Shown piece by piece: positions 13,205-40,333 of a stretch of DNA of 64,000 nt. Position 1 is the first letter of the stretch. Each line of letters begins with the position of its first letter. Below the pieces are notes generated by a model. The model worked only from the letters and a program-made list of their open reading frames with translations. It made no database searches and was not told the DNA's origin. This stretch comes from a virus, in IMG/VR virus record IMGVR_UViG_2718218017_000006, positions 18,956 to 82,955 of that record; one strand, 5' to 3'. The position numbers and the translations under genes are program-made.

Positions 13205-13353
13205 CTCTACATTGTCACCACCTGCCTCATTCGTTTTGTTTGGGGGATGAAGAAAGAGCTTTATTATAGTTTCATCCCTCTACTAAATTTCATTAATTAT
13301 AAGTATCATAATAAATTCGTCAACCATACTATAATGCTAAGGAGGTAAGACTT

Positions 13354-13689
13354 ATGTCTTGTTGTAATAAAGTTCAAACACATGACCATGAATTTTTAGG
13401 AAGCACTATGTTAGCTGAATTAGAGGAAGATCCTCATAATCATAGATTTGCTGGAGTATCTGGTCCGGCGCTTAGAGTTACACGCGGACATGTTCATGTA
13501 GTTAAAGCAAGAACAGATTTTTATGAAAACCATTTTCATGAATTCGAAGCAACCTCAGGACTTCAAATAGATGTTGGAAATGGAAGACATGTTCATTTTG
13601 TACGAGCAATAACTACAGAAAACGATGGCCACACTCATAATTTAATTTTTGCTACACTTATTGAAAACCCTATTTCAGAAGAAGCCTAA
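13354..13689 (+). CDS. ymaF: YmaF-family His-rich protein
   Basis: QTHDHEFLGST, HNHRFAGVSG, GHVH, GRHVHF, DGHTH, FATLIENP; strong RBS. Confidence 0.85.
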   Translation: MSCCNKVQTHDHEFLGSTMLAELEEDPHNHRFAGVSGPALRVTRGHVHVVKARTDFYENHFHEFEATSGLQIDVGNGRHVHFVRAITTENDGHTHNLIFATLIENPISEEA

Positions 13690-13744
13690 TCTTAAAAAGT
13701 AGAGCTGCTAAATATTCATGCAGCTCTGCTGTATTTTAATTATT

Positions 13745-13906
13745 CTACCTCATCCTCCTAACAGCACCCTTAACTCTCCTGTAACACTCATGCCGCATTA
13801 ATTTTTCAATATCAGAAAAGGAGAGGTATTCGCCTCTCCTTGGTTTATCTTTATTTAGTTTTTTATTTTGGTTAAGCTTTTCTTTCAGGATTTCTCTTAT
13901 CTTCAT
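13745..13906 (-). CDS. Small basic phage protein, probable indel near 3' end
   Basis: Manual translation MKIREILKEK...IEKLMRHECYRRV. Confidence 0.45.
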   Translation of the reverse strand: MKIREILKEKLNQNKKLNKDKPRRGEYLSFSDIEKLMRHECYRRVKGAVRRMR

Positions 13907-13957
13907 ACCTCTCACCTTCTTTATGTTATGATTAAATAAAAAGGAGATTTCTCATCT

Positions 13958-14146
13958 ATGAAAATTCTAAAGTACATATTTCTATGGGTTATAAGTTTTA
14001 TTGCATTTATGTATGGTTCATCTATTCTTGATGTAATATTTAATAATGATTCTGATTCAAGCACAATATTGATTACTTTATATGCATTAGGAGCAACTAT
14101 AATAATTTGTACATACCTAATAATAAATTCTATAAAAGAAAAATAA
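13958..14146 (+). CDS. Small two-TM membrane protein (moron)
   Basis: Two hydrophobic stretches; opposite strand to late operon. Confidence 0.6.
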   Translation: MKILKYIFLWVISFIAFMYGSSILDVIFNNDSDSSTILITLYALGATIIICTYLIINSIKEK

Positions 14147-14266
14147 GCACTCTAAATGACGAGTGCCTACCTTTGACATACACATATATAGTTTTATTTT
14201 ATTTACGGTTTCCCGCATTGGCAGCCCTATTTAACCCTGGAGCTAGAGGTATATTCATGGGGAATA

Positions 14267-14713
14267 TTAAAATTTAACTTTATTTTCATTTGCCAATCTT
14301 CTCGGAGTGTCCCATGTAACTACAGGAGCAACCTCTTTATTTATTACTATATCCCCGTCAGGATTCGTTTTATATATAGACCTATTCTTTTCTACAAACG
14401 CACTATCACTTATATATTTATTTGCTTCATAGTTAACTGCCTTTACCACCTCTCGCCTACATGTTAAGGCAACCCTATGTTTATATTTTAAATTACTAAA
14501 GTTTCTTTGGATGCATTTTTCTACAGTATCTTTTTTAACATTTAATTTTCTAGCAATCTCAGGGGCTGTTAACCCATCTAAATACAAAATCTTAACTTCT
14601 TCTTTATTTAACACAGCTCTCAAATCATCAGCTCCTAAAAAAGAATATAGTTCACCCAAACCATAAAAGTGGACATGTTTTATTTTTACCAAATTCAACT
14701 CTTTGAATTTCAT
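14267..14713 (-). CDS. HTH DNA-binding protein
   Basis: LYLDGLTAPEIARKLNVKKDTVEKCIQR. Confidence 0.7.
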   Translation of the reverse strand: MKFKELNLVKIKHVHFYGLGELYSFLGADDLRAVLNKEEVKILYLDGLTAPEIARKLNVKKDTVEKCIQRNFSNLKYKHRVALTCRREVVKAVNYEANKYISDSAFVEKNRSIYKTNPDGDIVINKEVAPVVTWDTPRRLANENKVKF

Positions 14714-14833
14714 TTATATTATATACTATTTCTCAATGTATTTTGTCCCAACTTTGTCCTATTTTTGTTTCAAATTTGTCTCATTTTTGTCTCAAGATTT
14801 TTTACGATTAAAAAAGGCAACAGCATTATTTTT

Positions 14834-15316
14834 TCAGCTATTGCCATATACCCCTTCCCACTTCACGATATCCTCCAGTATATCCTCTCGCCACCTGTAG
14901 GCAGTACTTCTTACACCACCATACATTTCATTTGCTATCCATCCAACGCTTTTATTTAGCTTGTACTTATAAATAATGAATTGCATAATTTCTTCTGATA
15001 GTGGAGGGACTGTCAGAACTTTCTTCAACGGAGCTGTATTTCTCTTTAACCACCTTATCCTGGACATATTCTTACGGAATTTTCTATTTACATATTTTAG
15101 TTCATTCTTAAGCTCCTTAATTTCCTTTTCATCTTCATTTTCTATCACGCTTTCACTTGAGTGCTTTATATCCCACTGAATACTTTCCTCCTGATCTTGA
15201 AGGTCTTTGCATTCCAGTTCCAAAGCTTCCATTTCCTTAAGATCTCTAAAATAGCCATACAGCTTACCTTCTGTCCTTTTAAATGTTTCTTTGTCCAACA
15301 TACAGTTCCCTCCCAT
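14834..15316 (-). CDS. ArpU/RinA-type late transcription activator
   Basis: FKRTEGKLYGY, KYKLNKSVGWIA...STAYRWREDILEDI; upstream of terminase. Confidence 0.75.
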   Translation of the reverse strand: MGGNCMLDKETFKRTEGKLYGYFRDLKEMEALELECKDLQDQEESIQWDIKHSSESVIENEDEKEIKELKNELKYVNRKFRKNMSRIRWLKRNTAPLKKVLTVPPLSEEIMQFIIYKYKLNKSVGWIANEMYGGVRSTAYRWREDILEDIVKWEGVYGNS

Positions 15317-15378
15317 GTACTTATTTAAGCTAAACTTTTATTTGTCTCATATTCTGCATTTTACTATGAAATCGTCAA

Positions 15379-16786
15379 TTATTTAGCCAACTGCTCTATA
15401 TCCCTTCTTAATTCCATGGAATTATATATCATATTCACGTATTTCTTTATCCTAAGTTTTGGCATATTAATACTTTTCCTCTTTCCTTCTATATCCATAT
15501 CAATTTCTTTTATTCGTTCTTTAAGGAATTTAATTTTATTAGAAATCCGTTCTTTCTCTAAATTCCTGACGTTTATATAAGAAACTATGGCCTTTTCACT
15601 TTCCTGTAAATCTTCCTTTAATGAATTTATTTCTTCCAGCAGCTCTTTGACAATTCCTCTGTTTATTTTTTCAGGAAAACCATAGTCAATTTTAATAAGA
15701 GTGATGATTACCGATTCATCCTGTCTCAAAACAAGGAGTATATCATCCTTTACATAGAATCTTTTGATAGTTCCATCTCCACCAAGCCGGTCTTCCGTTA
15801 AAAACTCTGAATAGTTAAATATCTTATTTATATCTCGTATTATCCTGTCATTATTCGTTAACACGTAATTTTCTATATCAAAACTATTAGTTATTCCCTT
15901 AACTCTTTCCACATATCTCTCCTTGCAATGGTTGGTTACATCAACATGCTTAAGTTCTGTTAGCACTGCTTCCATGGAATCCCTCCTTTAATAAGTTTTA
16001 AAAATCGTCTTAATAAACCTTCTCTTTCCAAAAGCATTATATTGATAATAACTGTATTGTATATATCCATTTTTTTAACTATAGCATCTCTTAACCCTGA
16101 TACATTGTATATATCCTTAGCTTTACAGCTTACTTCCACATCTGCAACTCCCCACTCTTTATCTTCAGTAAAGATAAAGCATGAAACCAAATATTTATTC
16201 ATACCACCCCTCCTATTCCCTTAATTTTAATGCCTTTTCCCTATCATATTCTTCTTTCAAATAAAGCCCTGGTTCCGTATATACTTTATCTCCTAGTATC
16301 TTATCCACTTGAGATATCGCAGCTCTATCCGTTTTGGCTTCAATAATTACTTCCTGTTCAACTTTTTTATCATCTTTGTATACTAATATATACTCCATTT
16401 ATTCTCCTAACCTTCTTCCACACATAGGACAATACTTTATCTTAAAATGTCCTTGTGCAAGTCTATGCCTAAATAATACTATTCTGGGTTTATCACCTTT
16501 CAATTGAAATATTACAGCTTCATTAGGTTGTGTTTTTTTACTGTCAGGGCTTTTGTTTATAAGAATGCTTTTTCCATATTCACCGTCACAATATTGGCAC
16601 ATAAGCTATTCCTCCTTAACTTATTTACCTCCCATGCCTGTCCCATTCTTTTTTAAAATTCTTATAACTCTTAGCACTTTCCTTCCTGCAATTCCTGACA
16701 ACTATATAAATGCCTATTATCCCAACTATGCTAATTAAAGCCCATGTTCCTATAAACACATATCCTAATTTTATTAAATGTTCCAT
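15379..16786 (-). CDS. Cluster of small hypothetical phage genes (15379..15975, 15960..16202, 16213..16398, 16399..16602 Cys-rich, about 16625..16786 single-TM)
   Basis: ORF track plus manual translation; abutting ORFs with RBSs. Confidence 0.6.
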
Positions 16787-16880
16787 CTACTCACCTTCTT
16801 CAAATTTCTATGCATAATAAATCCAATTTTGCACATACTATCTTTGTGTTTCATTATGTAATTATGTTTTAATGTATGTG

Positions 16881-17094
16881 TAACATAATTAATCCTTATA
16901 CCGGGGATGGATAATCCCCGGTGTTTAGTTTTACTTGAAATTACAACTAATCTATATTAAATTCCCATGTATAATAACTTATAACTTTACACATACTATT
17001 TATATATCCATTGAATAATTATCTTTTCAATGTTTATCTTTAACATATTAGTTCCTCATACCAGGGGCATATAAATCCCTGGTATTTAGTTTTA
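16881..17094 (-). repeat. Two diverged copies of a hairpin-containing intergenic element
   Basis: TAAAACTAAA-stem-loop-RBS-ATGTTA at 16933->16881 and 17094->17041. Confidence 0.8.
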
Positions 17095-17117
17095 TTGCAA
17101 AGTATTTGAGATACGAA

Positions 17118-18476
17118 CTAACTTACATGTTCTTTTCTGCAACTTTCAGACATATTTGCCTGTGTTAATACTTTTGCCATTACCGGTACTACACTATTTC
17201 CTATTCTTGCAACCCTTTTACTTATTGGATACCTTTTACCAGTATAATCATGATCAATGATATAATTTTCCGGAAAACCTTGACCTAATTTTAATTCTTC
17301 AGGTTTTAACATCCTAAACCATATATCAATTAATTGATATTGCTCTCCTTTAATCACAACCGTTACAAGTCCAAATCTATCTTTAGTAACTATAGTACCT
17401 ATAGGCCCACTCACCCTTTGCCCTATCCCATTTCCATAATACTTGATTAGAAAGGCCGAAATTAAACCGAAATGTCCAGGACTTGTTGTAATGGTGTGTA
17501 TGGGTTCATTTACTGCCTGTCCAGTACCACTCTTATAAAATTTAGTGATAAATGCAGTAACTAATCCATATCGGTTGCTTGTGTCAATAGTCTTTATTGG
17601 TTCATTCAAGCTCTGACCTCTTACATATTCTTTTTTTGTTTCACCATGATATTGGATAAGGAATGATGATGCTATATCATCTGGTAAAAAGTAAGGGTTA
17701 TCATCATTAATAATGAATTTTTCAATTCCTCTTGCAATTCGGTTAAGTGTTTTTTCCTTTAATGGCTTTTCCCTTGTAAATATGGAACTTCCTAAGTCAT
17801 TCCAGTCAATACATTTTGATATTGGTTCCCACTTTTTAAGTCCATTTACACCAAGTTTATTATGTGTGGGTTCCGGCCAAATAATATTTTTTCCATCACG
17901 CCTAAATACTGCATACCATCTATTCCTTGTTGTTGGTGCCCCATAATCAGCAGCTATCAACTCCCTACTGTCAAATTCATAACCTAATCCTTTCATTGCA
18001 CTAATGAATTTCTTATAATCTTCCCCTTTACGTTCTTTTATAGGATGTCCCTCATTATCAAGAGGACCCCATTTTTGAATTTCTTCGACATTTTCCATTA
18101 GGATAACATCTGGCAAAATTTTTCTCGCATGTTTGTATACTGCCCATGGCAATATTCTTAATCCTTTTATCTTGGGTTGCCCGCCTTTTGCTTTTGAATG
18201 ACTTGTACAGTCTGGGGAAGCCCACATAAGTGAAACATGACGACCTTTTGTATATTTAAGCATGTCAACCTTGAATATATCTTCTGTAATGTGCATAGTC
18301 TCTGGATGGTTAGTTTTATGCATTAATATAGCATCAGGATCATGATTTACTGCTAAATCAATCGGTCTCCCCATTGCCATTTCAATTCCCGTAGATGCTC
18401 CACCTCCACCTGCAAAAATATCAATTATAAGTCCTTTATTCATTGTTTTAACCTCCACGTCTGGAGGCATGGCCAT
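17118..18476 (-). CDS. DNA (cytosine-5) methyltransferase
   Basis: DIFAGGGG, WASPDC, MENVEE, R-x-R, RIGNSVVP motifs; three internal repeats in variable region. Confidence 0.95.
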   Translation of the reverse strand: MAMPPDVEVKTMNKGLIIDIFAGGGGASTGIEMAMGRPIDLAVNHDPDAILMHKTNHPETMHITEDIFKVDMLKYTKGRHVSLMWASPDCTSHSKAKGGQPKIKGLRILPWAVYKHARKILPDVILMENVEEIQKWGPLDNEGHPIKERKGEDYKKFISAMKGLGYEFDSRELIAADYGAPTTRNRWYAVFRRDGKNIIWPEPTHNKLGVNGLKKWEPISKCIDWNDLGSSIFTREKPLKEKTLNRIARGIEKFIINDDNPYFLPDDIASSFLIQYHGETKKEYVRGQSLNEPIKTIDTSNRYGLVTAFITKFYKSGTGQAVNEPIHTITTSPGHFGLISAFLIKYYGNGIGQRVSGPIGTIVTKDRFGLVTVVIKGEQYQLIDIWFRMLKPEELKLGQGFPENYIIDHDYTGKRYPISKRVARIGNSVVPVMAKVLTQANMSESCRKEHVS

Positions 18477-18546
18477 GCATTTTATCTAGAATTACTCCGA
18501 TTTTTATTTTTTATTTACTTCACAATAATTTCAGATTATGTCACAA

Positions 18547-18945
18547 CTAATATCCTATAATAGTTTCAGTTCTGTCCATAAAACCACAATCTAATAAATA
18601 TTTGCAGAATTCTTCAGGTGTGGGGTCTTCACTATCATGTTCCCCTAATACATTAATCAAATCATGAAAATTTGACAACGCGCTCCAAGCATCACTGAAT
18701 ATATTCAATTCAGGAACTATTTTTCCACTTAGATTTATCCAATCCACTGTCATTTCACCGGTTGTACCTCCTTGGGAGGAATACAACCCAAAAATTACTC
18801 TATCTACATAATCTGAATTCCTTAAACAAACCTCTCCATACCATGCTCTTGATAATTGAGTAAAACCTTTAATCATGCCTTCGTTTTTATTTTCCATCAT
18901 CCTATCTCCTACACACATCAGCCCCAACCTCTGCACAAGCCTCAC
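18547..18945 (-). CDS. Hypothetical phage protein
   Basis: ORF track. Confidence 0.55.
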   Translation of the reverse strand: MRLVQRLGLMCVGDRMMENKNEGMIKGFTQLSRAWYGEVCLRNSDYVDRVIFGLYSSQGGTTGEMTVDWINLSGKIVPELNIFSDAWSALSNFHDLINVLGEHDSEDPTPEEFCKYLLDCGFMDRTETIIGY

Positions 18946-19267
18946 AGCCTCTATCCACCAACTTTTTATTATGCCTGTGGAATCCCTGGACTATGTCAAA
19001 ATTCTCTCTGAAAAGCTTCGCCAGAATCCCAATACCCACCTGAATAACATCCAGTACCTCTTCCATTATCTTTTTCTTATCTCCAGAGGAGAGAGCTTCA
19101 CACAACTCTCCTGATTCCTCTAAAACTTTATCCTTCCAATCCTCCCAGGTCATTGTACGATTGTCTATCTTATTTCCTCTTCGGTCTATCAATTTCCTAA
19201 GCACCATTAGCTTTAGTTTCAATGTGTTCACCTTCCTAATCAACTTCTGTTTCCAAATTAAATCCAT
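18902..19267 (-). CDS. MazG-like nucleotide pyrophosphohydrolase
   Basis: KVLEESGELCEAL...MEEVLDV (EExxE...EExxD). Confidence 0.75.
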   Translation of the reverse strand: MDLIWKQKLIRKVNTLKLKLMVLRKLIDRRGNKIDNRTMTWEDWKDKVLEESGELCEALSSGDKKKIMEEVLDVIQVGIGILAKLFRENFDIVQGFHRHNKKLVDRGCEACAEVGADVCRR

Positions 19268-20387
19268 CTATAACCATGTCCTCTTTAAGTTCTATAAGTA
19301 AGCACTTCTTTCCCGATTTAACATATACCACCTGTTTTACAGTACTCAAATCCCTGGGACTTATGGTTATATTGGTACTCTCATTTTCTATCTTTATAGA
19401 CTTGCTTCCAAAATCAGGTATTACATTTCTGACCTTAAATTCATAATCCCCTCCACACACTTCTTCAAAAGCACTTTTAACTATTCCTGTGTTTTCAACT
19501 CCACTTTCCCTTAACACTCTGGTTACTTCATTTATATCCAAAATAGGCTCTTCTTCTCCCTCATCTTGAAATTTTTCATTTATCCTTTCGTATATATCCT
19601 GAACTATATCAGGTTTTATTTTTCCCCCTAATGAGATCCCTAAAATGGCATTAAAATTCTCCTTTTCTTCCAAAGCTGTGGGTTTAATATTGCATTCCAA
19701 TACTTTTTCTACGAAAACATTGTTCATCTTCTTTGATTTTGAAGAATAATAAATTATTTTATTTACATCTACATATTCAGATGTAAAGCTTGGAAACATG
19801 AATCCTTCCACAGGAGAATTTAAGTTTATAACCATATCTAATGCAGAATTAGGTTTAAATTTCATCTCCGTATAATCAAACTTCAGCATCTTTTTAGGTA
19901 TTTCCACTTTATTTACACTACACAATATAACTTCTATGGCTTGTACATATTCCTCTAAAGAATCTTTTTTTCTCTTACCATCACTGTAATATTCTGCCTT
20001 TGTAAAACTTATAACCACATCCGTATCATAATTATAGTTTTGAGAAATTTTATCCACTATCTTATCTGCATATTCACTTATTCTTTCCTTTGAATTTAAA
20101 GCAGCATATAATACATGCTGAGTATTTTCTTCTGATTCTTCCTCATTTATATTTTTAAAATCCAACTCAAATATTTTAGAATCCAAAGTTCCTGTAAGCA
20201 CTTTTTTAAAGTTATTTAAATAAAGCTCTCTCTTTTCTACTTCCATCATTTCAAAATATTCCAGTTCTCCTGTTATTATTTCACCGTTATCCTTTTTCAG
20301 GTAAACACTATAGATTTCCTTAACTTTAAGCATATAGCTTCCCAACTTAAATTCTTTTCTTATATCCGATAAATCCTTTTTATTCAC
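19236..20387 (-). CDS. DUF4317-like protein
   Basis: MNKKDLSDIRKEFK, YLNNFKKVLTG, GFMFPSF. Confidence 0.7.
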   Translation of the reverse strand: MNKKDLSDIRKEFKLGSYMLKVKEIYSVYLKKDNGEIITGELEYFEMMEVEKRELYLNNFKKVLTGTLDSKIFELDFKNINEEESEENTQHVLYAALNSKERISEYADKIVDKISQNYNYDTDVVISFTKAEYYSDGKRKKDSLEEYVQAIEVILCSVNKVEIPKKMLKFDYTEMKFKPNSALDMVINLNSPVEGFMFPSFTSEYVDVNKIIYYSSKSKKMNNVFVEKVLECNIKPTALEEKENFNAILGISLGGKIKPDIVQDIYERINEKFQDEGEEEPILDINEVTRVLRESGVENTGIVKSAFEEVCGGDYEFKVRNVIPDFGSKSIKIENESTNITISPRDLSTVKQVVYVKSGKKCLLIELKEDMVIDGFNLETEVD

Positions 20388-20391
20388 AAAC

Positions 20392-20793
20392 TTATACCTC
20401 CTTCAATATTTTCAGTTCTACCTCTGGATACCTCAATTTAAACTGCTTGTACGTCCTCTTCCATTGTGCTGACTCATAACCTTTGGTATCCTCAACACTG
20501 TAGGTACCATCCTTATTCAAAACCAGAAAATCAGCAGTATAAGTTATAGCTCTTTCTTCTCCTTTACCTTCCTGAAGAATAAACTCCGGCTGCAATATAA
20601 ATCCTGCGATTTCCCCAGCATAGAATAAAAGTTTTAACTGGCAGTATCTCTTCATTTCCAGCTGACTCCTGAAATACATTCCATCATGCCATGCACCCTT
20701 ATTCCTGTATTTCTGCTTCTTTACTTTTGGTTTCTCTACCTTCTGACCTCTCTTTTTGAGGTATTCCTGGTATTGTTCCTCTGTCCAGTTCAT
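20392..20793 (-). CDS. DUF1064-like PD-(D/E)xK nuclease
   Basis: FRSQLEMKRY, LQPEFILQ, YTADF...VEDTKG. Confidence 0.8.
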   Translation of the reverse strand: MNWTEEQYQEYLKKRGQKVEKPKVKKQKYRNKGAWHDGMYFRSQLEMKRYCQLKLLFYAGEIAGFILQPEFILQEGKGEERAITYTADFLVLNKDGTYSVEDTKGYESAQWKRTYKQFKLRYPEVELKILKEV

Positions 20794-20859
20794 CCATCTT
20801 CATTCCTATCTGATTACCAAATTTTATGGGTTTGGCTCCTCTTATGATTTTTAAACTAC

Positions 20860-21141
20860 TCATGCCTTGGCTACTTCCTTAAGCTCCCTAAGTTCTGCAA
20901 TAAAATCATCAATATCCTTGAAATCTACTGGTATGGTATTAATATAAGATTTTTGCCTTAAAAGAAATCCACCCTCTTGAATTTCATAACTCATTACCTT
21001 ACCTTGGAGTAATGCTATTTTCAGTCTTTTCCCAGACTTTTCATTAATATCTTTCGCCGGCTCTTCGCAGTCCTTCGTCGGTTTATCCGCCGGCTTCGCT
21101 GGCTTATCGTCTGTTTTCTTGCTTTCCATGTTTGCCGCCAA
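20860..21141 (-). CDS. Hypothetical phage protein
   Basis: ORF track. Confidence 0.5.
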   Translation of the reverse strand: MAANMESKKTDDKPAKPADKPTKDCEEPAKDINEKSGKRLKIALLQGKVMSYEIQEGGFLLRQKSYINTIPVDFKDIDDFIAELRELKEVAKA

Positions 21142-21193
21142 TCCATTTTATGTTGCTTAAATTCTTAAGTTTCACATTATTCCTCCTTACTTT

Positions 21194-22093
21194 CTAACTG
21201 TTTAGTATATCTCTGAGCATCTGGGTTTTTCTAATCCCATTCTTTATCCGTATACTTGAACCTGTATTTTCAATAGGGGAACACATGTCATGGATTAATC
21301 TATCTGCAGTTCTGCCAATATCATATTCACAGTCCCTGTCATATCTCCTCTTAAGTTGATTCATTGACAAATTTGATGTTATAATTAATGGTTTTTTCTT
21401 CCTGTACCTTGAATCCAATATTTGATACATGGTAGCTCTGGACCAATCCGTATTATTTTCAACTCCTATATCGTCAATAATCACCAAATCTGCGTTATCC
21501 AAGCAATTGAGTATGTTCTGCACTCCTTCATCACCGTAGCTTCTGAAACTGCTCTTTATCCTCTCCAAAATTCCAATAGCAGAAACACAAACCACAGGTA
21601 TAAACTGTTTTATAAGTGTATTAGCAATACACCCCGATAAAAATGTTTTTCCGTTACCTGGCTTTCCGTAAATAAGCAGGCCTACGTTTTCTTTCAAGGC
21701 TTTTTCTTTGAAACATTTCACATACTTTATTCCTAGTTCATACATGCTCTCATTGCCCAAAGTATGGTCCCAGCTTTCAAAGGTGAACTCCCTAAACTCC
21801 CTGGTCATTAAGCTGTTATTAAATATTCTCTCAAGCCTAATCTGCTTTTCTCTGGCTTGAGATATACGCTCGTTTTCTTCAAAGGCTTCTTTTTTACACT
21901 TACACATCCTTGGGACTATATAATTTCTCCCCATTAGCCTGACCACTTTTCCTGTAGGTTCACCACAAACAGGACAATTGTCTAGTTCTGTTTCAGAAGT
22001 GGAAACCAATCCCGGAGCTGTCGATCCCCTTTTCTGTATTTTCTTGTTTTGGGTCTCTATCATGACTTTTACCCCCATTCTTGATATTTTCAC
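21194..22093 (-). CDS. DnaC/IstB-like helicase-loader ATPase
   Basis: CPVCG, GKPGNGKT, LVIIDDIG, IITSNL. Confidence 0.9.
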   Translation of the reverse strand: MKISRMGVKVMIETQNKKIQKRGSTAPGLVSTSETELDNCPVCGEPTGKVVRLMGRNYIVPRMCKCKKEAFEENERISQAREKQIRLERIFNNSLMTREFREFTFESWDHTLGNESMYELGIKYVKCFKEKALKENVGLLIYGKPGNGKTFLSGCIANTLIKQFIPVVCVSAIGILERIKSSFRSYGDEGVQNILNCLDNADLVIIDDIGVENNTDWSRATMYQILDSRYRKKKPLIITSNLSMNQLKRRYDRDCEYDIGRTADRLIHDMCSPIENTGSSIRIKNGIRKTQMLRDILNS

Positions 22094-22811
22094 GTTTCCA
22101 TAAATCTTTTATAATGCCTATGCAGTAGCAAAAAGAGTTTATTTTATCATTCTCAGTATCTGGCTTGAATCTATCAAAGGCTTGATCTATACCTCTTAGA
22201 ACTGTATTGAGGGACAGCACCTCATTACAAATCTTCTGGGCGGCTTCTAGTTCACGAGGTTTTAAATTCAGATCCAGCTTTCCTGATTTTTGGCAAAAAT
22301 ATTTTAATGCTATTTCCCATGGCTCTTTTTCAGTAGTAGTAATATTATTATCTTTATTATCATTATTGTTTGTCTCTGTTTGTAATCCATTATCATTCTG
22401 TTTGTAATCTGTTTGTAATCCATTATCGTTCTGGTTATCGGCGGAACTCGTTGATATATCTTCATTTAAACCGTTCTGATTTTGGTACTCTTCATAATTC
22501 ACTACTGTAATCATAGTTTTTCTTTTATCAGTTGATAATTTTATCATTTCTTCGGTAGCAAGGAGCTTTAAAAACCTTCTAGTTTTTTCTGTACCCCACC
22601 CCCATCTTTCCATTAATTTTTTTTGTGACGTTATAAAACTTCCTCTTTTTACATTTATTAATTCACTACCAAGTAAAGTTTTCTTATCCTTATGGTTGGC
22701 TGACAGGAGAAGGTCAATCCAAGCCTGGCCTTTAGAAAAAGGCTTCTCTTGCCATAACCAACTGTATTGAATTTTTCTGTGTACACTTATCCATCCTTTG
22801 CCTTCTCCCAT
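21993..22811 (-). CDS. Phage replication initiator
   Basis: GWISVHRKI, AWIDLLLSANH, KRGSFITS; internal iterons. Confidence 0.85.
   Translation of the reverse strand: MGEGKGWISVHRKIQYSWLWQEKPFSKGQAWIDLLLSANHKDKKTLLGSELINVKRGSFITSQKKLMERWGWGTEKTRRFLKLLATEEMIKLSTDKRKTMITVVNYEEYQNQNGLNEDISTSSADNQNDNGLQTDYKQNDNGLQTETNNNDNKDNNITTTEKEPWEIALKYFCQKSGKLDLNLKPRELEAAQKICNEVLSLNTVLRGIDQAFDRFKPDTENDKINSFCYCIGIIKDLWKRENIKNGGKSHDRDPKQENTEKGIDSSGIGFHF
22376..22433. repeat. Putative replication-origin iterons
   Basis: CTGTTTGTAATC at 22376, 22398 and 22409 inside the initiator gene. Confidence 0.75.
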
Positions 22812-22824
22812 AATCCAATACTCC

Positions 22825-23548
22825 TTAAAATAAATCTATCTTCAAACCTTTATCCGCAATATAGGTAGGCTTTCCTGTAAGCCTCTCTATCTCTTCTTGA
22901 AACTGTGCAGCATTACTATTGCTATCACTAAGATGTAAAAGCACAATATCTTTAACCTGACTTAAATCAGTGACCTTTAAAAATTCTTTTACATTATTCA
23001 GGCTGAAATGAGATTTCAAAAGCCTGTTTCTAAGTACGGGATGTATTAATCCTTTTCAAAGTTTTCATTTACAATATCCATACTGTAGTTGCACTCAATC
23101 ATAATGTGATTAAGTCCTGTAAAGTTATACTGGCAGTAGTAACTATCTGTAACAAAGAGCAGCTTACCCATATCACTATGTTGTATAAGGAAACCTAAAG
23201 GCTCTACTGCATCATGTTCAGCTTCAAAAGGGAGTACAGTAAAATTTCCTATAGAAACCTGATTTTCAGATTTAATTACTTGTGCTCTATAATCCCCAGC
23301 ATCTACTGCCTTAATGTTCCACTGCTGCTGTAAACATCTATTCCGTTACTGATAAGCTCCTTTATGGCCTTGGAATGATCTTTATGTTCATGTGTGACCA
23401 AGCATCCTGCCACATCAATTAAGTTGAAATTCAGTCCCTTTATGATAGTTTTATAGGGCAGTCCACACTCAAGTATCAAAGTTTCATCTCTATTCTGGAG
23501 TAGATAGCAGTTACCTGCCGATCCACTCCCTAAAACTGTAAATTTCAT
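22825..23548 (-). CDS. MBL-fold metallo-hydrolase, frameshifted
   Basis: GSGSAGNCY, THEHKDH, LLHLSDSNS in separate frames. Confidence 0.85.
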
Positions 23549-24487
23549 TAGAATCCTGGTCCTTCTATTTCAGTCTGTTCTGTTGAACTTGGAGTTTGCT
23601 TTTCTTCCACCTTCTCAGGCTCCACATCAATTATCTTCTGATTTTCTGTTTTTTCCTCAGAAGCCTTTATATCTATAGACTTCTTATTTGCCTTATCCTT
23701 TATCTCTTCCTTAACCTCATATTCAACATTACCTACCATGCTCTCCTCATCATAGGTCTTGTCCGTATTGTTAAAAGCTTCAATCAAAAGGTCACTGTCG
23801 TCAGAAGTATTTGCATACATCTTGCAAGCCCTGTTTATCACCGATTTCTTTGCCATTTCATCTGCAAAATTATTATGGGCTGTAGATTTTCCACTTTTAT
23901 AGGCAATACCCTGTCCCCATGCTTTTTTAATCTGGTCGATATTCATTACCTCTGCATGAATGGGACCATTCTCTCCTATTACTACTGCAAAGGCACCCTT
24001 TATTTTATTTGTATCTATATTTTCAAACTTGGGATTGAATTTACTAATTTTCAAAGTTGCTGTATCCAGGTCATAGGTCTGCTCAAATTCATCACCTCGT
24101 AAATGCAATAAGCTTTAATATCTTAACACCTCTTAATCTCTTTGTTACTGCTACAGTTCCCATGTAACTACGCATTAATTGCAACTGGTTTCCGTAAACT
24201 ACAAAATAGCATTGTTTTTTAGCTGGTGTCAGTCCCTGCAGGCACATATCATAAAGAGAACCTATAATTGAATTTTTGGTACATACCTCAAGCGCAGGTT
24301 TATGATCCTTACTTTGTACTTCTTGAAGTTGCAGCCATGCACTGTTTAAGGCATTGGCAACTGAATAATTAGGAGGAAATGCTATATCATTATTTTTTCT
24401 AAGCTCCCCTATTTTTTCCGTTATCTGATTTAAGGCATCTTCTTTGGCTAATGTTATTGCAGTACTTTTATTTTCCATTTTTATCAC
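23548..24487 (-). CDS. recT: RecT-family recombinase, split by two single-base deletions
   Basis: LQGLTPAKKQCYF, LMRSYMG, MAKKSVINRACK. Confidence 0.85.
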
Positions 24488-24504
24488 CTTCCCTTATTCT
24501 CAAT

Positions 24505-26493
24505 TTAACTTGCAAGCTGCTTTTCTTCTGCAAGTTCACCATTTTCAATTCTTAAAGATTTATCTTTACTGCTTACAACTAGATTCACTACTTGACTCTC
24601 TACATCTATAAGTTTTGTGGTGCTTTCCCTGTTATCTATAAATATTGGTGCATTAATTCCGCAGTGCTGAGACAAGGTGTTTATAATATCTATACCGGCA
24701 TTAATCCTTGCGCCTGAATTTAAGTTCGTAGAAAATGGAACTCCATCTACAAGGGGTTCACAGCCCTCTTCAATCCCTCCATTAACCAGTGTTTTAAAGA
24801 ACCTAAACTTAACATATTTGAATTTGGAATTGATACTTGTTTCCATAAGTTCAACCTTGGTTTTTATGAATTCATCACACAAAAACTCTTGTTTCTCTAA
24901 ATTAGCAATCTGCTGACTTAGCTCTTTTTCCTTGTTTAAAAGTTCCTCAATCCTGGCATTTGTTCTATCATTCATTTCCCTGTATCCCAGCTTGTAGTTG
25001 ACCTCCTCAAGTTCTTTTTCTATACTTTCTTTTCTCTCTTTGAGTTCTCTTATCTGGGCATCTGATTCTACTGGTTTTGACAGTTCCGTTTCAAATTCTT
25101 CCACCTGCCTCAATATATCCTGGTATTCCTTATTACTATCAAGGTCTATATTAATTTTGAAATTGTCCATTTCAGATTGAAGTTTATCTTTTTCATTATT
25201 GAGCTTTTCCAGAGAATCCCTAGCATTTTTCAGGGCAGTTTCATTATTCAATACTCTCTCTTTATACTTTTCAAGTTCATTAGATTTTTCTAAACCTTGA
25301 GCTTTTATACTTTTCAAGATTTTGGACTTATTCTGTTTAAAGTTCCCCTCCATCTCTTGCCTGTGGCTTTCAATATCCTCCTCGTCAAAAGGACGGTGGC
25401 AGGTAGGACATATACGTGCATCTTCTGGAAGTTCAAAAACTTTTGCATCTTCCTCATACCACTTGTCCCTTAAATTCTTAACTTCTACTTCTAAGTTGCT
25501 GGCTATTTTAAGGTTGTTGTTTTTCTCCATTTCAAGGGATTTAATATCAAACTTGAGTTCAGCTATTTCCCCATTCAAGCTGCTTATATCCTGGGCTATT
25601 TTATCTCTTCCACTTTCGGCCTTTTCAACTTCCTCATGTTCAATATCTTTTAATTTGGATTTAAGTCCATAAAGTTTATCTTTCTTCATAAATAGTTCAT
25701 CATCAAGTTTTGTCTTATCAAGGAGCTGCTCCTCCACACTTTTCATTCCTGCAACTATTCCACGTTTTCTAAACTCCAAGGCTTTAAAGTCAATATCTTC
25801 TTTTCTTATACTTTTTCTAAGTTCGTCAACTCTAGGAGGTATTGACTCCTTGTCCTTGATCAATTTCTTTCTTGATGCATTTATGCTTTTTTTAAGTTCA
25901 TCTATATCCTTGTTTACAAGAAGTTCTTCCAGAGGTTTCAATTTTCCCTTTGAATCAATAACATTCTGATCTGTAATTTCACCTATCATTCCCATGAGTA
26001 TATTTTTTCTTTCCTGCCATGTCATTTTAGTTGAGAAATGCATTGGATTTGTCAGGAGCTTAAATATATCCTCCTGGATGATTTCATTTATTTTCTTCTT
26101 ATACTCTTTCTCTTTCTTGGGTACATCATCAATATAGTAAGAAGCAGTGGCACCCTGAAACTCTGATTCAGTTTTTCCCTTTGGTTTAACCCACTTTTCT
26201 TTCAAGAGTTTCCTTAACAACATGTTCACACCATTTATCTCAAGTACTGCTTCCACTTCCGTATCAACCCTATGAACTACTTTATTGTCCCCATCAAGTG
26301 GTTGTACATCAAATTTGCTTATGTCCTGGCTGTCTTTGTTAAACAAAAGCCATGTAAAGGCATCAAATATCGTAGTCTTTCCTGTGGCATTGTCACCGTA
26401 GATGTTGGTTATGTTTGAAAAATCTATTGTTAAGTCCTTGATACCTTTGAAATTCTTAAGAGTCAGTTTTTCTAAAACTATTGTTTTACTCAT
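24505..26493 (-). CDS. SMC-like AAA ATPase
   Basis: LKNFKGI, GDNATGKT, long coiled coil, LNSGARI, PIFIDNRE. Confidence 0.9.
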   Translation of the reverse strand: MSKTIVLEKLTLKNFKGIKDLTIDFSNITNIYGDNATGKTTIFDAFTWLLFNKDSQDISKFDVQPLDGDNKVVHRVDTEVEAVLEINGVNMLLRKLLKEKWVKPKGKTESEFQGATASYYIDDVPKKEKEYKKKINEIIQEDIFKLLTNPMHFSTKMTWQERKNILMGMIGEITDQNVIDSKGKLKPLEELLVNKDIDELKKSINASRKKLIKDKESIPPRVDELRKSIRKEDIDFKALEFRKRGIVAGMKSVEEQLLDKTKLDDELFMKKDKLYGLKSKLKDIEHEEVEKAESGRDKIAQDISSLNGEIAELKFDIKSLEMEKNNNLKIASNLEVEVKNLRDKWYEEDAKVFELPEDARICPTCHRPFDEEDIESHRQEMEGNFKQNKSKILKSIKAQGLEKSNELEKYKERVLNNETALKNARDSLEKLNNEKDKLQSEMDNFKINIDLDSNKEYQDILRQVEEFETELSKPVESDAQIRELKERKESIEKELEEVNYKLGYREMNDRTNARIEELLNKEKELSQQIANLEKQEFLCDEFIKTKVELMETSINSKFKYVKFRFFKTLVNGGIEEGCEPLVDGVPFSTNLNSGARINAGIDIINTLSQHCGINAPIFIDNRESTTKLIDVESQVVNLVVSSKDKSLRIENGELAEEKQLAS

Positions 26494-26503
26494 GTTCTAC
26501 CTC

Positions 26504-26806
26504 CTAATCACAATAAGTCCTATTACAATGTGGACAACCTGTTATAAGTTCTTTACCGGCCTTTTCAGTGGATATCCCTGTTTTAAAATCAGCCTTTTCT
26601 AAATCAACTCTTATTCCATCACCAAATTCATCACGCTTCCAGCCAATTTGTTCGTAGATATTTTGATTACAACACCAGCATTTTCCTGAACTTGGTGCAA
26701 AATGTGGATAGTCTTTATCTTCACATAATTTTGCTTGAGCCTCTATAGATTCATTAATATCAAATTTTGCCATTTTAATTCCTCCCATATTTGATTTTTC
26801 CCCCAT
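26504..26806 (-). CDS. Cys-rich (zinc-finger) phage protein
   Basis: CWCC...CPHC. Confidence 0.6.
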   Translation of the reverse strand: MGEKSNMGGIKMAKFDINESIEAQAKLCEDKDYPHFAPSSGKCWCCNQNIYEQIGWKRDEFGDGIRVDLEKADFKTGISTEKAGKELITGCPHCNRTYCD

Positions 26807-37899: not shown

Positions 37900-38012
37900 T
37901 CAAACAACTCCTGTATTAAAGACATATCCATCTTATGTTATGTTAGACTTACTAATATTGTTACTTCACACTAAATAATTTTAAGTTTGTAAAAAATGAT
38001 ATAATAAAATAA

Positions 38013-40016
38013 ATGCTACAAAGGGGGTTAAAAGTAATGCTAAAGGTAGCTATATACAGCAGAAAATCAAAGTTTACCGGCAAGGGGGATTCTGTAGAAA
38101 ATCAAATAGAAATGTGTAAACAGTATATTATAAATCATTTAGAGGGAGATGTTGATTTTTTAATTTATGAAGATGAAGGCTTTAGTGGCAGCACAATAAA
38201 CAGGCCTCAATTTAAAAAACTAATTCAAGACATAAAACTTAAAAAAATAAATTATTTAGTATGTTACAGATTGGATCGTATCAGCAGAAATGTATCTGAT
38301 TTTTCCTCTACTTTAGAATTATTGCAAAATTACAATGTAAGTTTTATAAGTATAAAGGAGCAGTTTGACACTTCTACACCTATGGGAAAGGCTATGATAT
38401 ATATTGCCAGTGTCTTTGCACAGTTAGAAAGAGAGACGATCGCAGAACGTGTAAAAGATAATATGCTTGAGTTAGCTAAGAATGGTAGATGGACCGGAGG
38501 GAAAATACCCTTAGGATTTACTTCTAAAAGAAAAAAATACAGAGATAAATCTGGTTTAGAAAGAGAATTTTCTATTCTTGAAATAAATAAGGAAGAAATG
38601 GACTTTGTTAAATTTTTATATGAAAAATATTTAGAAGTTGGTAGCCTCCATAAGTTAGAAGTATATATGACTGAAAATCAAATAAAATCAAAAAATAATA
38701 TTTTATTTGAAAAATCTACTTTAAAAATCATCCTCCAGAATCCTATATATGTAAAAGCTAATGCGGCAGTAATTGGATATTTGGAATCGAATGGATGGAA
38801 TATTTATGGTGAAGCAGATAATATTCATTCTCTACTCACATATAATAAAACTAGACAAGTAATAAGAAATGGTAAGCGTACTAAATCCCTAAATCCCGAA
38901 AGTGAACGCTTTGCTTCTGTAAGCAATATAACGGGAGCACTGGAGCCTGAACTATGGTTAAAGGTTCAAAATCAATTTGATAGAAATAAAGATACTTTCC
39001 CTAGATTAGGTAAAACCCATAATGCTTTATTAACTGGTAAATTAAAATGTGGCCGGTGTAAAGAATATATGTTAGTACAACATGGCAGAGTTTCTAAACT
39101 TACCGGAGAAAAACTCTTTTATTATGTATGCTCATTAAAACGAAAATCACACAAGAAATTTTGTGATAATAAAAATGCTAAAGCTGCAGAGCTTGAAAGT
39201 TTAGTATTGTTAAGTTTAAAAAAGCTAGGCAATGAACAAAAACAATTTATGGACAGATTGAAAGAAAATTATAATTCTAAATTAAAAGATGATAGCAAAA
39301 GCGAAAAAATGTTACTAGATAAAGCTTTAACCGAAAAGAAAAATCAAATCGACAATCTACTAAATATGCTTTCAAAAAGTAAGGATATAGAAGATGTAAT
39401 GATTGATAAAATTAAATCTATAAAAAATGAATGCATAGAAATCGAAAAGAGGCTAACTGTTCTTGATGATGAAAGTAAAAAGGATAAAGTAGAAAAAATC
39501 AACTTAGATCTAATAGAAAATATATTATGTGATTGTGCAGTAATAGATGAGCTCCCACGTGTCAAACAAAAGCAAATTATTAATACATTGATAGATGTTA
39601 TATACTGGTACGGAGACAAAAACAACAACGGAAAAGTATTTATAAAATTTATAGGCTCTGATAAAGATGATTTTGAAGAAATTGAATTGCCTGATATAGA
39701 TTTTTCCAATACTATGTTGCAGTTTTGTTCACCTAGCACATGCAGTATGAACAAAACTGCAACATATAGAAATGTATTTAAAGATATTGAAAACTCTACC
39801 TCTACAGTATATTATACACTTCCTGAAAGAACAATTGCACAAAAAATTTATAAATTAAGAATGATCAAAGGATATACCCAACGTGAATTTGCTAAAGTTT
39901 GTTCTATAGGCTATTCTTCTTTATGTAAATATGAAATAGGGAAATCAAAACCTAAGCGTGTTAATTTGGAGAAGATATGCCAAACTTTTAATATGTCTAT
40001 TGATTATTTTTTATAA
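38013..40016 (+). CDS. Large serine recombinase (integrase) with in-frame C-terminal XRE HTH
   Basis: AIYSRKS, YEDEGFSG, YRLDRISR, recombinase domain, CGRC Zn ribbon; C-terminal IYKLRMIKGYTQREFAK...KYEIG. Confidence 0.95.
   Translation: MLQRGLKVMLKVAIYSRKSKFTGKGDSVENQIEMCKQYIINHLEGDVDFLIYEDEGFSGSTINRPQFKKLIQDIKLKKINYLVCYRLDRISRNVSDFSSTLELLQNYNVSFISIKEQFDTSTPMGKAMIYIASVFAQLERETIAERVKDNMLELAKNGRWTGGKIPLGFTSKRKKYRDKSGLEREFSILEINKEEMDFVKFLYEKYLEVGSLHKLEVYMTENQIKSKNNILFEKSTLKIILQNPIYVKANAAVIGYLESNGWNIYGEADNIHSLLTYNKTRQVIRNGKRTKSLNPESERFASVSNITGALEPELWLKVQNQFDRNKDTFPRLGKTHNALLTGKLKCGRCKEYMLVQHGRVSKLTGEKLFYYVCSLKRKSHKKFCDNKNAKAAELESLVLLSLKKLGNEQKQFMDRLKENYNSKLKDDSKSEKMLLDKALTEKKNQIDNLLNMLSKSKDIEDVMIDKIKSIKNECIEIEKRLTVLDDESKKDKVEKINLDLIENILCDCAVIDELPRVKQKQIINTLIDVIYWYGDKNNNGKVFIKFIGSDKDDFEEIELPDIDFSNTMLQFCSPSTCSMNKTATYRNVFKDIENSTSTVYYTLPERTIAQKIYKLRMIKGYTQREFAKVCSIGYSSLCKYEIGKSKPKRVNLEKICQTFNMSIDYFL
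39713..39766. other. attP-like serine-integrase site inside the integrase ORF
   Basis: Perfect 19-bp inverted repeat TATGTTGCAGTTTTGTTCA/TGAACAAAACTGCAACATA around a GCA-CA-TGC core. Confidence 0.75.
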
Positions 40017-40138
40017 AGTGTAAAAGAAAGAAAGGGGTATTACTAAGCCCCTCTTCACCACATTGACCTTACTTTCCCCAGCAATTTCTCCCCTGTGTCT
40101 ATTATCTGGTATAATGGAATAAAAGGAGGCGTGGTTGC

Positions 40139-40333
40139 ATGGCAATGTCTAATAGAGAATTATTTGCTTTAATGTACAATAAAGTATTTGAAATTGCTAA
40201 TAACTATAAGTCTGATTGTATATATGATGAGAAAGTTAAGGAAGAAGTAGCAAGACAGTTCGGTAAGAAAAAACTGATTGGTTCTATCATACTTGGAAAA
40301 AGATTTGAGGGTTGTGGCTCTCTTTTGTTTTAA
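40139..40333 (+). CDS. Small hypothetical protein
   Basis: ORF track; AAGGAGG RBS and TGGTATAAT upstream. Confidence 0.55.
   Translation: MAMSNRELFALMYNKVFEIANNYKSDCIYDEKVKEEVARQFGKKKLIGSIILGKRFEGCGSLLF

What the first reader, a model, noticed from the sequence alone, without database searches (positions are those of the whole stretch)
38013..40016. Recombination-state-dependent integrase-XRE fusion
Seen: the reading frame runs through the att-like site into a complete XRE HTH (about the last 70 aa). Inference: crossover at CA would swap the C-terminus, so the attP form makes Int-HTH and the integrated form makes a different, HTH-less Int. This would be a genetic switch analogous to integration-dependent repressor truncation in mycobacteriophage BPs, but acting on the recombinase itself.
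Basis: inference. Interest (0 to 1): 0.75.

Follow-up and report, generated by a model that had tools for sequence, protein, structure and literature searches.

The report
Integrase that loses its HTH on integration
A Clostridium phage integrase gene runs straight through the phage's own attachment site into a DNA-binding domain, so the free phage makes a fused integrase-regulator, while the integrated prophage makes a shorter integrase and leaves the regulator as a separate small gene at the other prophage end.

Summary
Observation and central inference both hold.

- **The gene.** ORF 38013-40016 (likely true start 38037) is a large serine integrase. Its folded core ends near aa 546. A roughly 50-aa low-confidence linker and an XRE HTH follow.
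- **The site.** A 54-bp attP (39713-39766) lies in the linker-coding DNA. It has 19-bp perfect inverted arms and a central CA at 39739-40.
- **attP-state relatives.** The isolated phage CP51, circular 39.8-kb contigs and the window all encode Int-HTH.
- **Integrated relatives.** They encode a shorter Int with a host-coded tail. In a sister species a 99% identical Int is 587 aa. The HTH part sits 25-70 kb away at the other prophage end as an 89-aa ORF.
- **Junctions.** attL and attR of that species equal the window's attP crossed with this genome's own empty attB, exactly at CA. attB lies inside a flavoprotein gene.
- **State, not lineage.** HTH presence is scattered over the integrase tree.
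- **Orientation.** Phages with centre CA or TG insert in opposite orientations.
- **Why the window is un-recombined.** This 56-kb phage appears nested in another prophage through a 13.3-kb homology.
- **Open.** The regulatory consequence is untested.
- **Precedent.** Closest is Mx8 IntP/IntX (tyrosine integrase). I found no description for serine integrases.
- **Earlier scan note.** The integrated-state side was noted on other DNA (e1-5347900).

The parts
38013..40016 (+). Int-HTH open reading frame (667 aa as longest ORF; probable true start ATG 38037, 659 aa)
37996..38029 (+). Candidate int promoter (extended -10 TGATATAAT 37996-38004) and Shine-Dalgarno AAGGGGG (38022-38029) before ATG 38037
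   Evidence: Read from the sequence; inference. The RNA-library contig begins at 37994.
38037..39659 (+). Folded integrase core: catalytic resolvase domain, recombinase domain (DBD1), zinc-ribbon domain (DBD2) with a long coiled-coil insert
   Evidence: Pfam. AF2 model: helices 383-500 form the coiled coil, and the last strands are 519-538 in 659-aa numbering.
39660..39806 (+). Coding DNA for a ~49-aa low-confidence (probably flexible) linker between integrase core and HTH; contains attP
   Evidence: residues 542-590 (659-aa numbering) have pLDDT < 50.
39713..39766 (.). attP: 19-bp perfect inverted arms, 16-bp spacer
   Evidence: The same 54-bp quasi-palindrome occurs in CP51, L001/L002 and L004.
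39739..39740 (.). Central CA dinucleotide, the crossover point (codon T576)
   Evidence: attL and attR of G187 and G173 switch partner exactly here; metagenome contigs of runs X4 and X8 break at 39738-39740.
39747..40016 (+). 89-aa XRE HTH module (HTH_3 at nt 39846-40010). It is a separate ORF in lysogens and the C-terminal domain of Int in the attP state.
40031..40055 (+). Short G+C-rich hairpin directly after the HTH stop codon (terminator-like), kept in relatives that otherwise diverge here
   Evidence: Sequence; alignment.
13202..26505 (.). Left copy of a 13.3-kb, 97.3% direct repeat. The right copy is at 69566-82798 in window coordinates, outside the window. The offset of 56,364 bp equals one phage genome.

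Best explanation
**Shown.**
- The gene encodes a large serine integrase. Its attachment site attP lies inside its own coding sequence, in the DNA for a disordered linker that joins the integrase core to an XRE helix-turn-helix domain.
- While the phage genome is free or circular (attP state), translation gives Int-HTH of 659/667 aa.
- Integration is a crossover at the CA of codon 576 with attB, which lies inside a host flavoprotein gene (TrmFO/MnmG-like C-terminal part). This cuts the gene in two.
- At one prophage end the integrase now finishes with a few host-coded residues (587 aa in the 99%-identical prophage of a sister species).
- At the other end, 25-70 kb away, the HTH part remains as an 89-aa ORF.
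- In phages with centre CA, the prophage lies in the sense orientation of the host gene. The ATG of the HTH ORF then overlaps the TGA that ends the truncated host gene (ATGA).
- In phages with centre TG, the prophage lies the other way round, and the HTH ORF starts at an ATG on the crossover with no upstream gene.
- Excision restores Int-HTH and the host gene.
- The window's copy is un-recombined, and its attB at C1:2305049-50 is empty.

**Inferred.**
- This phage (A, 56.4 kb) probably sits in the chromosome inside a related prophage (B), through a 13.3-kb homology rather than through its own attB.
- The HTH is a regulatory DNA-binding module, and the form in which it is made reports integration state. 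It is tethered to a multimeric integrase when unintegrated. It is free (host-operon driven) or silent when integrated.
- The folded integrase tolerates any tail because the cut falls in a linker.

I put the physical swap at about 0.95, and a selected regulatory role for it at about 0.5.
For: **att table.** attL of G187 is the left half of attB (as in G000) + CA + the right half of attP (as in the window). attR is the reverse. Both are exact over 40+40 nt. G173 gives the same result.

**Predicted tail found.** The G187 Int is 99% identical over aa 1-578 and 587 aa long. It ends SPST + RKTYDLLLPLR, the tail I had predicted from G000's attB.

**HTH at the far prophage end.** Seen in G187, G173, G276, G193, G207 and C. 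septicum. The start-stop overlap is ATGA in four and GTGA in one.

**attP-state genomes encode the fusion.**
- CP51 has an annotated 655-aa integrase.
- Two 39.8-kb contigs with different start points show the order cI, ImmA, Int-HTH, then lysis genes convergent.
- A 54-bp quasi-palindrome with centre CA or TG sits in the same codon in all of them.

**State, not lineage.** HTH presence needs 18 changes on the Int-body tree, against 21.4 (17-23) for shuffled labels. HTH+/HTH- pairs reach 0.90-0.99 identity.

**Tails of HTH-less proteins are host-coded and follow the centre.** In the motif-classified proteins, core codons T (ACA), M (ATG) and V (GTG) give:
- xCA: sense, +1 frame tails (19 clusters).
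- xTG: antisense tails (48 clusters).
- No exception among these; a few other core codons and 24 proteins without the motif were not classified.

**Metagenome contigs.** Two runs break at 39738-39740, one run holds both forms, and an RNA-library contig spans 37994-40419.

**Structure.** The AF2 model shows a linker with pLDDT < 50 between DBD2 and a confident HTH.

**Nesting.** A 13.3-kb repeat with an offset of 56,364 bp. The outer block is bounded by halves of an NMT1-like gene, with a second integrase beside one half. There is no second copy of the att arms or the HTH in the genome.
Against: - No experiment shows that Int-HTH and the short Int behave differently, or what the HTH binds.
- Conservation of the in-frame fusion proves little. 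The att site has a fixed length, and both flanking codings are under selection. Only 0-3 free codons separate the crossover from the HTH start.
- No Shine-Dalgarno precedes the HTH start in any state. One lysogen (G193) has no start codon there (GTAA). TG-class lysogens have no upstream gene to couple to. A free HTH is therefore not a general product.
- attP and attB lie in direct orientation 1.46 Mb apart on this chromosome. An active integrase would delete that segment. This argues for silence of int here, or for an assembly that threaded a free phage genome into the chromosome through the 97% repeat.
- I found no convincing operator for the HTH.
Confidence: 0.8

Rival explanations
1. Neutral by-product. 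The physical swap is real, but the fusion itself has no function. attP simply lies across the end of int and the start of a small XRE gene in a compact genome. The integrase works with any tail. The only meaningful HTH product is the free 89-aa protein made in lysogens.
For: - The cut falls in a disordered linker.
- Host-coded tails of 1 to about 50 aa are all tolerated.
- A start codon sits at or 3 codons after the crossover in most cases. ATGA/GTGA overlap with the host gene's new stop occurs in 5 of 6 sense-orientation lysogens.
- Frame conservation is explained by the fixed-length att site.
Against: - In the commoner TG class the HTH ORF lies antisense to the host gene, without a Shine-Dalgarno or an upstream ORF to couple to.
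- G193 has no start codon.
- In the attP state the HTH can only be translated as part of Int, and an RNA-library contig covers the whole fusion.
Confidence: 0.4
2. Two lineages. Integrases with and without a C-terminal HTH are separate subfamilies, each keeping its architecture whatever the state.
For: Two length classes appear in the homologue list.
Against: - HTH presence is scattered on the tree: 18 changes against 21.4 for shuffles.
- HTH+/HTH- pairs are 0.90-0.99 identical in the body.
- The window and G187 are 99% identical.
- Tails of the short class are translations of the host gene.
- The missing HTH is found at the far prophage end.
Confidence: 0.02
3. Read-through into target DNA. 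The HTH belongs to the host or to the neighbouring prophage, and the integrase frame merely runs on into it after integration.
For: The window lies in a chromosome, and a second prophage's lysis genes follow.
Against: - Both arms are phage-type and perfectly symmetric.
- The same P'-HTH segment follows int in the virion genome of CP51 and in circular contigs.
- It travels with the prophage to its far end in six lysogens.
- The real host-side sequences are the flavoprotein gene halves.
Confidence: 0.02
4. Sequencing or assembly artefact. A frameshift or a chimeric join created the fusion.
For: The surrounding arrangement (a phage nested through a 97% repeat, with attP and an empty attB on one chromosome) could partly reflect assembly choices.
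Against: The fused frame recurs in 22 independent protein clusters, in CP51, and in contigs of unrelated runs that cover 37994-40419 without indels in the ORF. The artefact question touches where the phage sits, not the fusion.
Confidence: 0.03

Closest known systems
Myxococcus phage Mx8 IntP/IntX (Tojo 1996; Magrini 1999; summarised in PMC6070905)
   Same: attP lies inside the integrase coding sequence. Integration creates a recombinant int gene with a new 3' end, so the prophage makes an integrase with a different C-terminus. Excision restores the original.
   Different: - Mx8 Int is a tyrosine recombinase, while this is a large serine recombinase with a 2-bp crossover.
- Here the lost part is a complete, separately folded XRE DNA-binding domain, which survives as its own ORF at the other prophage end.
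- In one orientation class that ORF is placed behind a host gene with an ATGA overlap.
Integration-dependent immunity of mycobacteriophages BPs, Brujita and Charlie (Broussard 2013; PMC3694055, PMC4557955, PMC9934374)
   Same: The attP core lies inside a regulatory gene's reading frame, so integration changes the C-terminus of a phage DNA-binding protein and thereby reports integration state.
   Different: - There the gene is the repressor, the enzyme is a tyrosine integrase, and the removed part is an ssrA-like degradation tag.
- Here the split gene is the integrase itself. No degradation tag is evident: the fusion ends DYFL, and host-coded tails end LPLR, TCI or KFF.
- An effect on immunity is not shown.
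Gene-interrupting elements moved by large serine recombinases (SPbeta SprA/SprB in spsM, skin, gin; PMC4191935, PMC5499854)
   Same: A large serine recombinase inserts a prophage inside a host coding gene, and precise excision would restore the gene. The same host gene is a hot spot: a second, 43%-identical recombinase element sits further upstream in it in G187 and G173.
   Different: - In those systems attP is outside the recombinase ORF, and the enzyme is the same in both states.
- No sporulation link is seen here. The target is the second gene of a two-flavoprotein operon.
Engineered integrase-RDF C-terminal fusions (Olorunniji 2017, PMC5737554; PMC12286644)
   Same: A second protein tethered by a flexible linker to the C-terminus of a serine integrase, close to DBD2. 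This is where directionality factors act, and appended domains there can change or inhibit activity.
   Different: Those are artificial fusions with a known RDF. Nothing shows that the natural HTH binds the integrase or affects directionality.

Membership tests
Large serine recombinase (phage serine integrase) | N-terminal resolvase catalytic domain, recombinase domain (DBD1), and zinc-ribbon domain (DBD2) with a coiled-coil insert | tested here: met
   Pfam PF00239, PF07508 and PF13408 all score above their cut-offs. Cysteines of the zinc ribbon are invariant. Long helices 383-500 appear in the model.
Large serine recombinase (phage serine integrase) | About 50-bp att sites with inverted half-sites and a 2-bp central crossover whose sequence sets the orientation | tested here: met
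   A 54-bp attP. An exact attP/attB/attL/attR table with exchange at CA. Centre CA versus TG predicts sense versus antisense insertion without exception among the T-, M- and V-codon clusters classified.
Large serine recombinase (phage serine integrase) | Catalysis of attP x attB without host factors, and RDF-dependent excision | not testable with these tools
   Only natural recombination products were observed. No RDF was identified.
XRE/Cro-C1 type HTH regulator | HTH_3-type five-helix DNA-binding domain | tested here: met
   PF01381 scores 34.5 bits (cut-off 23) and PF12844 scores 36.2 bits (cut-off 30.2). PHROG 8/3/4 transcriptional regulators match. Five helices with pLDDT 76-90 appear in the model.
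XRE/Cro-C1 type HTH regulator | Sequence-specific operator binding | not tested
   No operator was found by looking for palindromes around int and downstream of the HTH.
Integration-dependent immunity (BPs type) | attP core inside the repressor gene, and integration removes a C-terminal ssrA-like tag to give a stable repressor | tested here: not met
   The split gene is int. No AA-type tag sits at either C-terminus. A separate cI-like gene exists upstream in relatives.
Integration-dependent immunity (BPs type) | Tyrosine integrase | tested here: not met
   Serine recombinase domains only.
Mx8-type state-dependent integrase (IntP/IntX) | attP within the int coding sequence, and the prophage int has a new 3' end | tested here: met
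Mx8-type state-dependent integrase (IntP/IntX) | Tyrosine recombinase, with altered activity of the prophage form shown | tested here: not met
   The recombinase family differs. An activity difference could not be tested.

The most novel reading that the evidence does not exclude
The swap is a true integration-state switch on a serine integrase.
- **Unintegrated state.** The HTH, dimerised by the integrase it is tethered to and positioned next to DBD2 (the region where RDFs act), changes either the integrase's directionality or RDF sensitivity, or phage gene expression.
- **Integrated state.** The enzyme becomes the plain RDF-responsive form. In CA-class phages, the freed HTH is put under control of a host operon by stop-start overlap, so that host transcription feeds into prophage control.
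Probability: 0.3. Interest if true: 0.85.

Novelty: new variant of a known kind. Interest (0 to 1): 0.7.

Why it matters
1. **Extends a known principle.** "The recombination site inside a gene rewrites that gene" was known for tyrosine-integrase phages (Mx8, BPs). This case extends it to large serine integrases, and the exchanged part is a whole DNA-binding domain.

2. **Directly testable.** Close natural pairs exist: the same integrase at 99% identity in attP state (this window) and in integrated state (sister species). An isolated phage, CP51, also carries the fusion.

3. **A practical warning.** Catalogues of serine integrases mined from integrated prophages (for example PMC10083194, which annotates coding sequences in host genomes) will list enzymes of this family with host-coded tails and without the native C-terminal domain.

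4. **A natural design for synthetic biology.** An att site inside a linker lets recombination split a fusion protein and re-wire the distal domain to another promoter.

5. **The orientation rule seen in nature.** CA-centre and TG-centre phages enter the same host gene in opposite orientations, which displays the central-dinucleotide rule.

Tried and rejected
- **The search of protein representatives** with aa 540-667: dominated by multi-HTH repeat proteins. Its only use was to show stand-alone 88-92-aa ORFs that begin at the crossover.
- **Operator hunt for the HTH**: palindromes around the int promoter and downstream of the HTH gave nothing convincing. Relatives diverge right after the terminator-like hairpin.
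- **The genome search on the records behind L015, L010 and L007**: not held, so the far ends of those prophages were not seen.
- **P0025 (C. botulinum)**: it has a CA-class core, but its tail leaves the flavoprotein sequence after 7 residues and the neighbouring genes differ. This may be a rearranged or secondary site. Not followed.
- **Exact crossover of the second integrase (Int2) in the NMT1-like gene**: not resolved without an uninterrupted homologue.
- **Sporulation-gene target idea (as for SPbeta or skin)**: dropped. The target is the second gene of a two-flavoprotein operon.
- **Literature**: eight searches and four papers read found no serine integrase whose ORF crosses attP into an HTH. 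Subscription journals were not covered.
- **Depth in Logan contigs**: cannot rank expression. The higher depth of 37994-40419 than of its flanks in the RNA library X1 is only a hint of transcription.
Full report
**What is there**

The window is G000:C1:3725481-3789480 of a 4.5-Mb, low-G+C genome (31.6% G+C on the chromosome) with two contigs. ORF 38013..40016 (+) is 667 aa. Pfam finds the three domains of a large serine recombinase: Resolvase 12-160, Recombinase 194-325 and Zn_ribbon_recom 339-399. It also finds HTH_19/HTH_3 at 610-667.

All homologues begin at the second ATG, 38037. That ATG has a Shine-Dalgarno AAGGGGG and an extended -10 upstream, so the protein is probably 659 aa.

Inside the ORF, 39713-39731 and 39748-39766 are perfectly complementary 19-nt arms separated by 16 nt. 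The symmetry centre is CA at 39739-40, in codon T576. M579 (39747) starts the last 89 residues. By my estimate the chance of such a repeat is about 1e-7.

An AlphaFold2 model built on 23 HTH-bearing relatives ends the zinc-ribbon domain near residue 538 (659-aa numbering). It gives pLDDT below 50 for residues 542-590, and a confident five-helix HTH from 591 to 659. The att site therefore lies in DNA coding a probably flexible linker.

**Two forms of the protein**

The protein search returned 22 clusters of 643-663 aa with the HTH and about 98 clusters of 547-619 aa without it. All share the motif MLQFxSPS coded by the left att arm, and they diverge within three residues after it.

The short forms do not end at random.
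- Where the core codon is xCA (T), the tail is the +1 frame of the sense strand of a host flavoprotein gene (CKINDFLLS..., 19 clusters).
- Where it is xTG (M or V), the tail is the antisense strand of the same gene (TCI*, TSIK*, SSIKQNYIFSKFF*, 48 clusters).
- There was no exception among these motif-classified clusters.

On a tree of the integrase body (572 columns, 121 rows, all listed proteins kept), HTH presence needs 18 changes, against 21.4 (17-23) for shuffled labels. HTH+/HTH- pairs reach 0.90-0.99 identity. HTH presence is therefore a state, not a lineage.

**Free phages carry the fusion**
- Protein P0010 lies on 39.8-kb contigs from two samples with different start points. The gene order is cro | cI, ImmA-like protease, Int-HTH | accessory genes, amidase, holin, tail fibre. 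This is the closed-circle arrangement, in which int and the lysis genes converge on attP.
- The isolated C. perfringens phage vB_CpeS-CP51 (39,108 bp) is annotated with a 655-aa integrase that contains the in-frame HTH.
- All these genomes have the 54-bp quasi-palindrome (20-22 of 27 positions per half), with centre CA or TG in the same codon.

**Prophages carry the split gene**

In C. septicum the 569-aa integrase abuts a 263-aa N-terminal fragment of an FAD protein gene on the opposite strand. About 39 kb away lie the 163-aa C-terminal fragment and a 91-aa HTH ORF that starts at an ATG on the crossover.

In 288 Clostridiaceae genomes, only G000 has the full frame. G187 (99% identical), G173 (95%) and G276 (89%) stop matching at aa 578-579 or carry stops. 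In G187, G173, G276, G193 and G207 the HTH part is separate. Where both parts lie on one contig, it is 25-70 kb upstream on the same strand.

**The att table**
- G000 carries an intact 425-aa copy of the target gene, with an unoccupied site centred on CA at C1:2305049-50.
- attL of G187 equals the left 40 nt of that attB, then CA, then the right 40 nt of the window's attP.
- attR of G187 equals the left 40 nt of the window's attP, then CA, then the right 40 nt of attB.
- The G187 integrase is 587 aa and ends SPST-RKTYDLLLPLR. I had predicted that tail from G000's attB before seeing it.

Logan contigs of unrelated runs add independent support. Contigs in two runs break at 39738-39740. One run holds both a spanning contig and a broken one. 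A 2,424-nt contig of a mud metatranscriptome covers 37994-40419 without interruption. That depth is higher than in the flanks, which is only a hint of transcription.

**Orientation rule**

Phages with centre TG (C. septicum and most isolates) lie antisense to the host gene. Phages with centre CA (the window, G187, G173, P0020) lie in the sense orientation. This is what the central dinucleotide of a serine-integrase site is known to dictate, and it confirms the crossover position.

**What becomes of the HTH in lysogens**

In sense-orientation prophages the truncated host gene ends ...LLDTGHAV-TGA, and the TGA overlaps the ATG of the HTH ORF. The overlap is ATGA in G187, G173, G276 and L043, and GTGA in G207. 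G193 has GTAA and no start codon.

No Shine-Dalgarno precedes the HTH start in any state. A short G+C-rich hairpin follows the stop codon in all relatives. In antisense prophages nothing upstream could drive or couple translation. A free HTH is therefore a plausible product only in one orientation class. The feature common to both classes is that the integrase loses the HTH.

**Why the window shows attP inside a chromosome**

The window holds parts of two related myovirus-like prophages. A 13.3-kb, 97.3% direct repeat (13202-26505 and 69566-82798) has an offset of 56,364 bp.

The segment between the repeat copies is a complete phage map: early genes, lysogeny genes, an agr-like kinase, Int-attP-HTH, accessory genes, lysis, tail, head and terminase. 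The outer parts form a second complete map. That map ends in a 551-aa integrase (38% identical) whose 3' end overlaps the first 100 codons of an NMT1-like gene. The rest of that gene lies 119 kb to the left.

No second copy of the att arms or of the HTH exists in the genome. The simplest reading is that phage A entered prophage B by homologous recombination. An assembler threading a free phage A genome through the repeat cannot be excluded. The second contig is a third related phage genome.

attP and attB lie in direct orientation 1.46 Mb apart, so an active integrase would delete that segment. This remains unexplained.

**Mechanism**
- **Shown:** the two gene states, their junctions, and their interconversion in nature.
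- **Inferred:** that the difference matters.
- **For a role:** in the attP state the HTH can only be made as part of the integrase. It hangs on a flexible tether from the end of DBD2, the region where directionality factors bind and where appended domains can alter or block activity (PMC12286644). A short XRE domain without its own dimerisation part would gain avidity from a dimeric or tetrameric integrase.
- **Against:** the in-frame fusion is locked by the fixed-length att site and needs no extra selection, and all kinds of host-coded tails are tolerated.

I put the physical swap at about 0.95, a selected regulatory role at about 0.5, and the specific directionality or host-operon reading at about 0.3.

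**Comparison with what is known**

The nearest precedent is Mx8, where attP lies within int and integration gives int a new 3' end (PMC6070905). Integration-dependent immunity of BPs-type phages is the nearest regulatory analogue. Both use tyrosine integrases.

SPbeta, skin and gin elements share the enzyme family and the gene-splitting habit, but not the intragenic attP. Eight literature searches found no serine integrase whose ORF crosses attP into an HTH. The large catalogue of serine recombinases (PMC10083194) takes coding sequences from integrated elements and does not discuss this.

I checked that claim independently.

**Verdict**

It is a new variant of a known kind. Interest 0.7.

Noticed in passing
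window 13202-26505 and 69566-82798 (second copy outside the window); block bounds about -25880 and 93390 in window coordinates: Two related prophages of about 56 and 63 kb appear to be nested through a 13.3-kb, 97.3% direct repeat. The whole 119-kb block is bounded by the two halves of an NMT1-like substrate-binding protein gene. A second serine integrase (551 aa, 38% identical) overlaps the N-terminal half.
   Followed up: partly
G000:C1:2305049-2305050 (L014) versus window 39739-39740: An unoccupied attB, identical over 40+40 nt to the one used in the sister species, coexists with the intact attP on the same chromosome. They lie in direct orientation 1.46 Mb apart, so integrase activity would delete the interval. 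Either int is silent here or the phage is really extrachromosomal.
   Followed up: partly
L017 1-925 (G187) and L018 2287-3255 (G173): A second large serine recombinase (43-44% identical) from another element is inserted further upstream in the same flavoprotein gene, at about codon 79-100. That gene is therefore a hot spot for serine-recombinase elements. L007 (Clostridium sp. FP2) also has two such recombinases close together.
   Followed up: no
window 37167-37667: In a mud metatranscriptome (run X1) this short stretch beside int has a summed contig depth of 5e4 to 5.7e5, against about 87 over int and 4-12 just upstream of int.
   Followed up: no
window 38013 versus 38037: The longest ORF starts at 38013, but the homologues, the Shine-Dalgarno (38022-38029) and the extended -10 (37996-38004) point to ATG 38037 as the true start of int.
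   Followed up: yes
G000 contig C2 (58,581 bp): The second contig is a third related phage genome. It shares mosaic blocks of 90-99% identity with both prophages and with other chromosomal regions, and it has its own 541-aa serine integrase (46-48% identical). No terminal overlap was found.
   Followed up: partly
window 35882-37665 and 89920-91698 (outside the window): Both prophages carry an 87%-identical cassette with a GHKL/SpoOB-type sensor kinase just upstream of their integrase.
   Followed up: no
window 40139-40333 and L017 1868-2059: A small ORF of 63-64 aa with a strong Shine-Dalgarno and its own extended -10 follows the HTH. It is conserved between the window and G187 and ends at a 21-nt-arm hairpin (40395-40450). 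It has no family match and is a candidate accessory or directionality factor.
   Followed up: no
L015 7700-7800 (C. botulinum CP006908): A CA-class integrase whose host-coded tail follows the flavoprotein sequence for only 7 residues. The tail then diverges, and the neighbouring genes are unrelated. This may be a rearranged or secondary attachment site.
   Followed up: no
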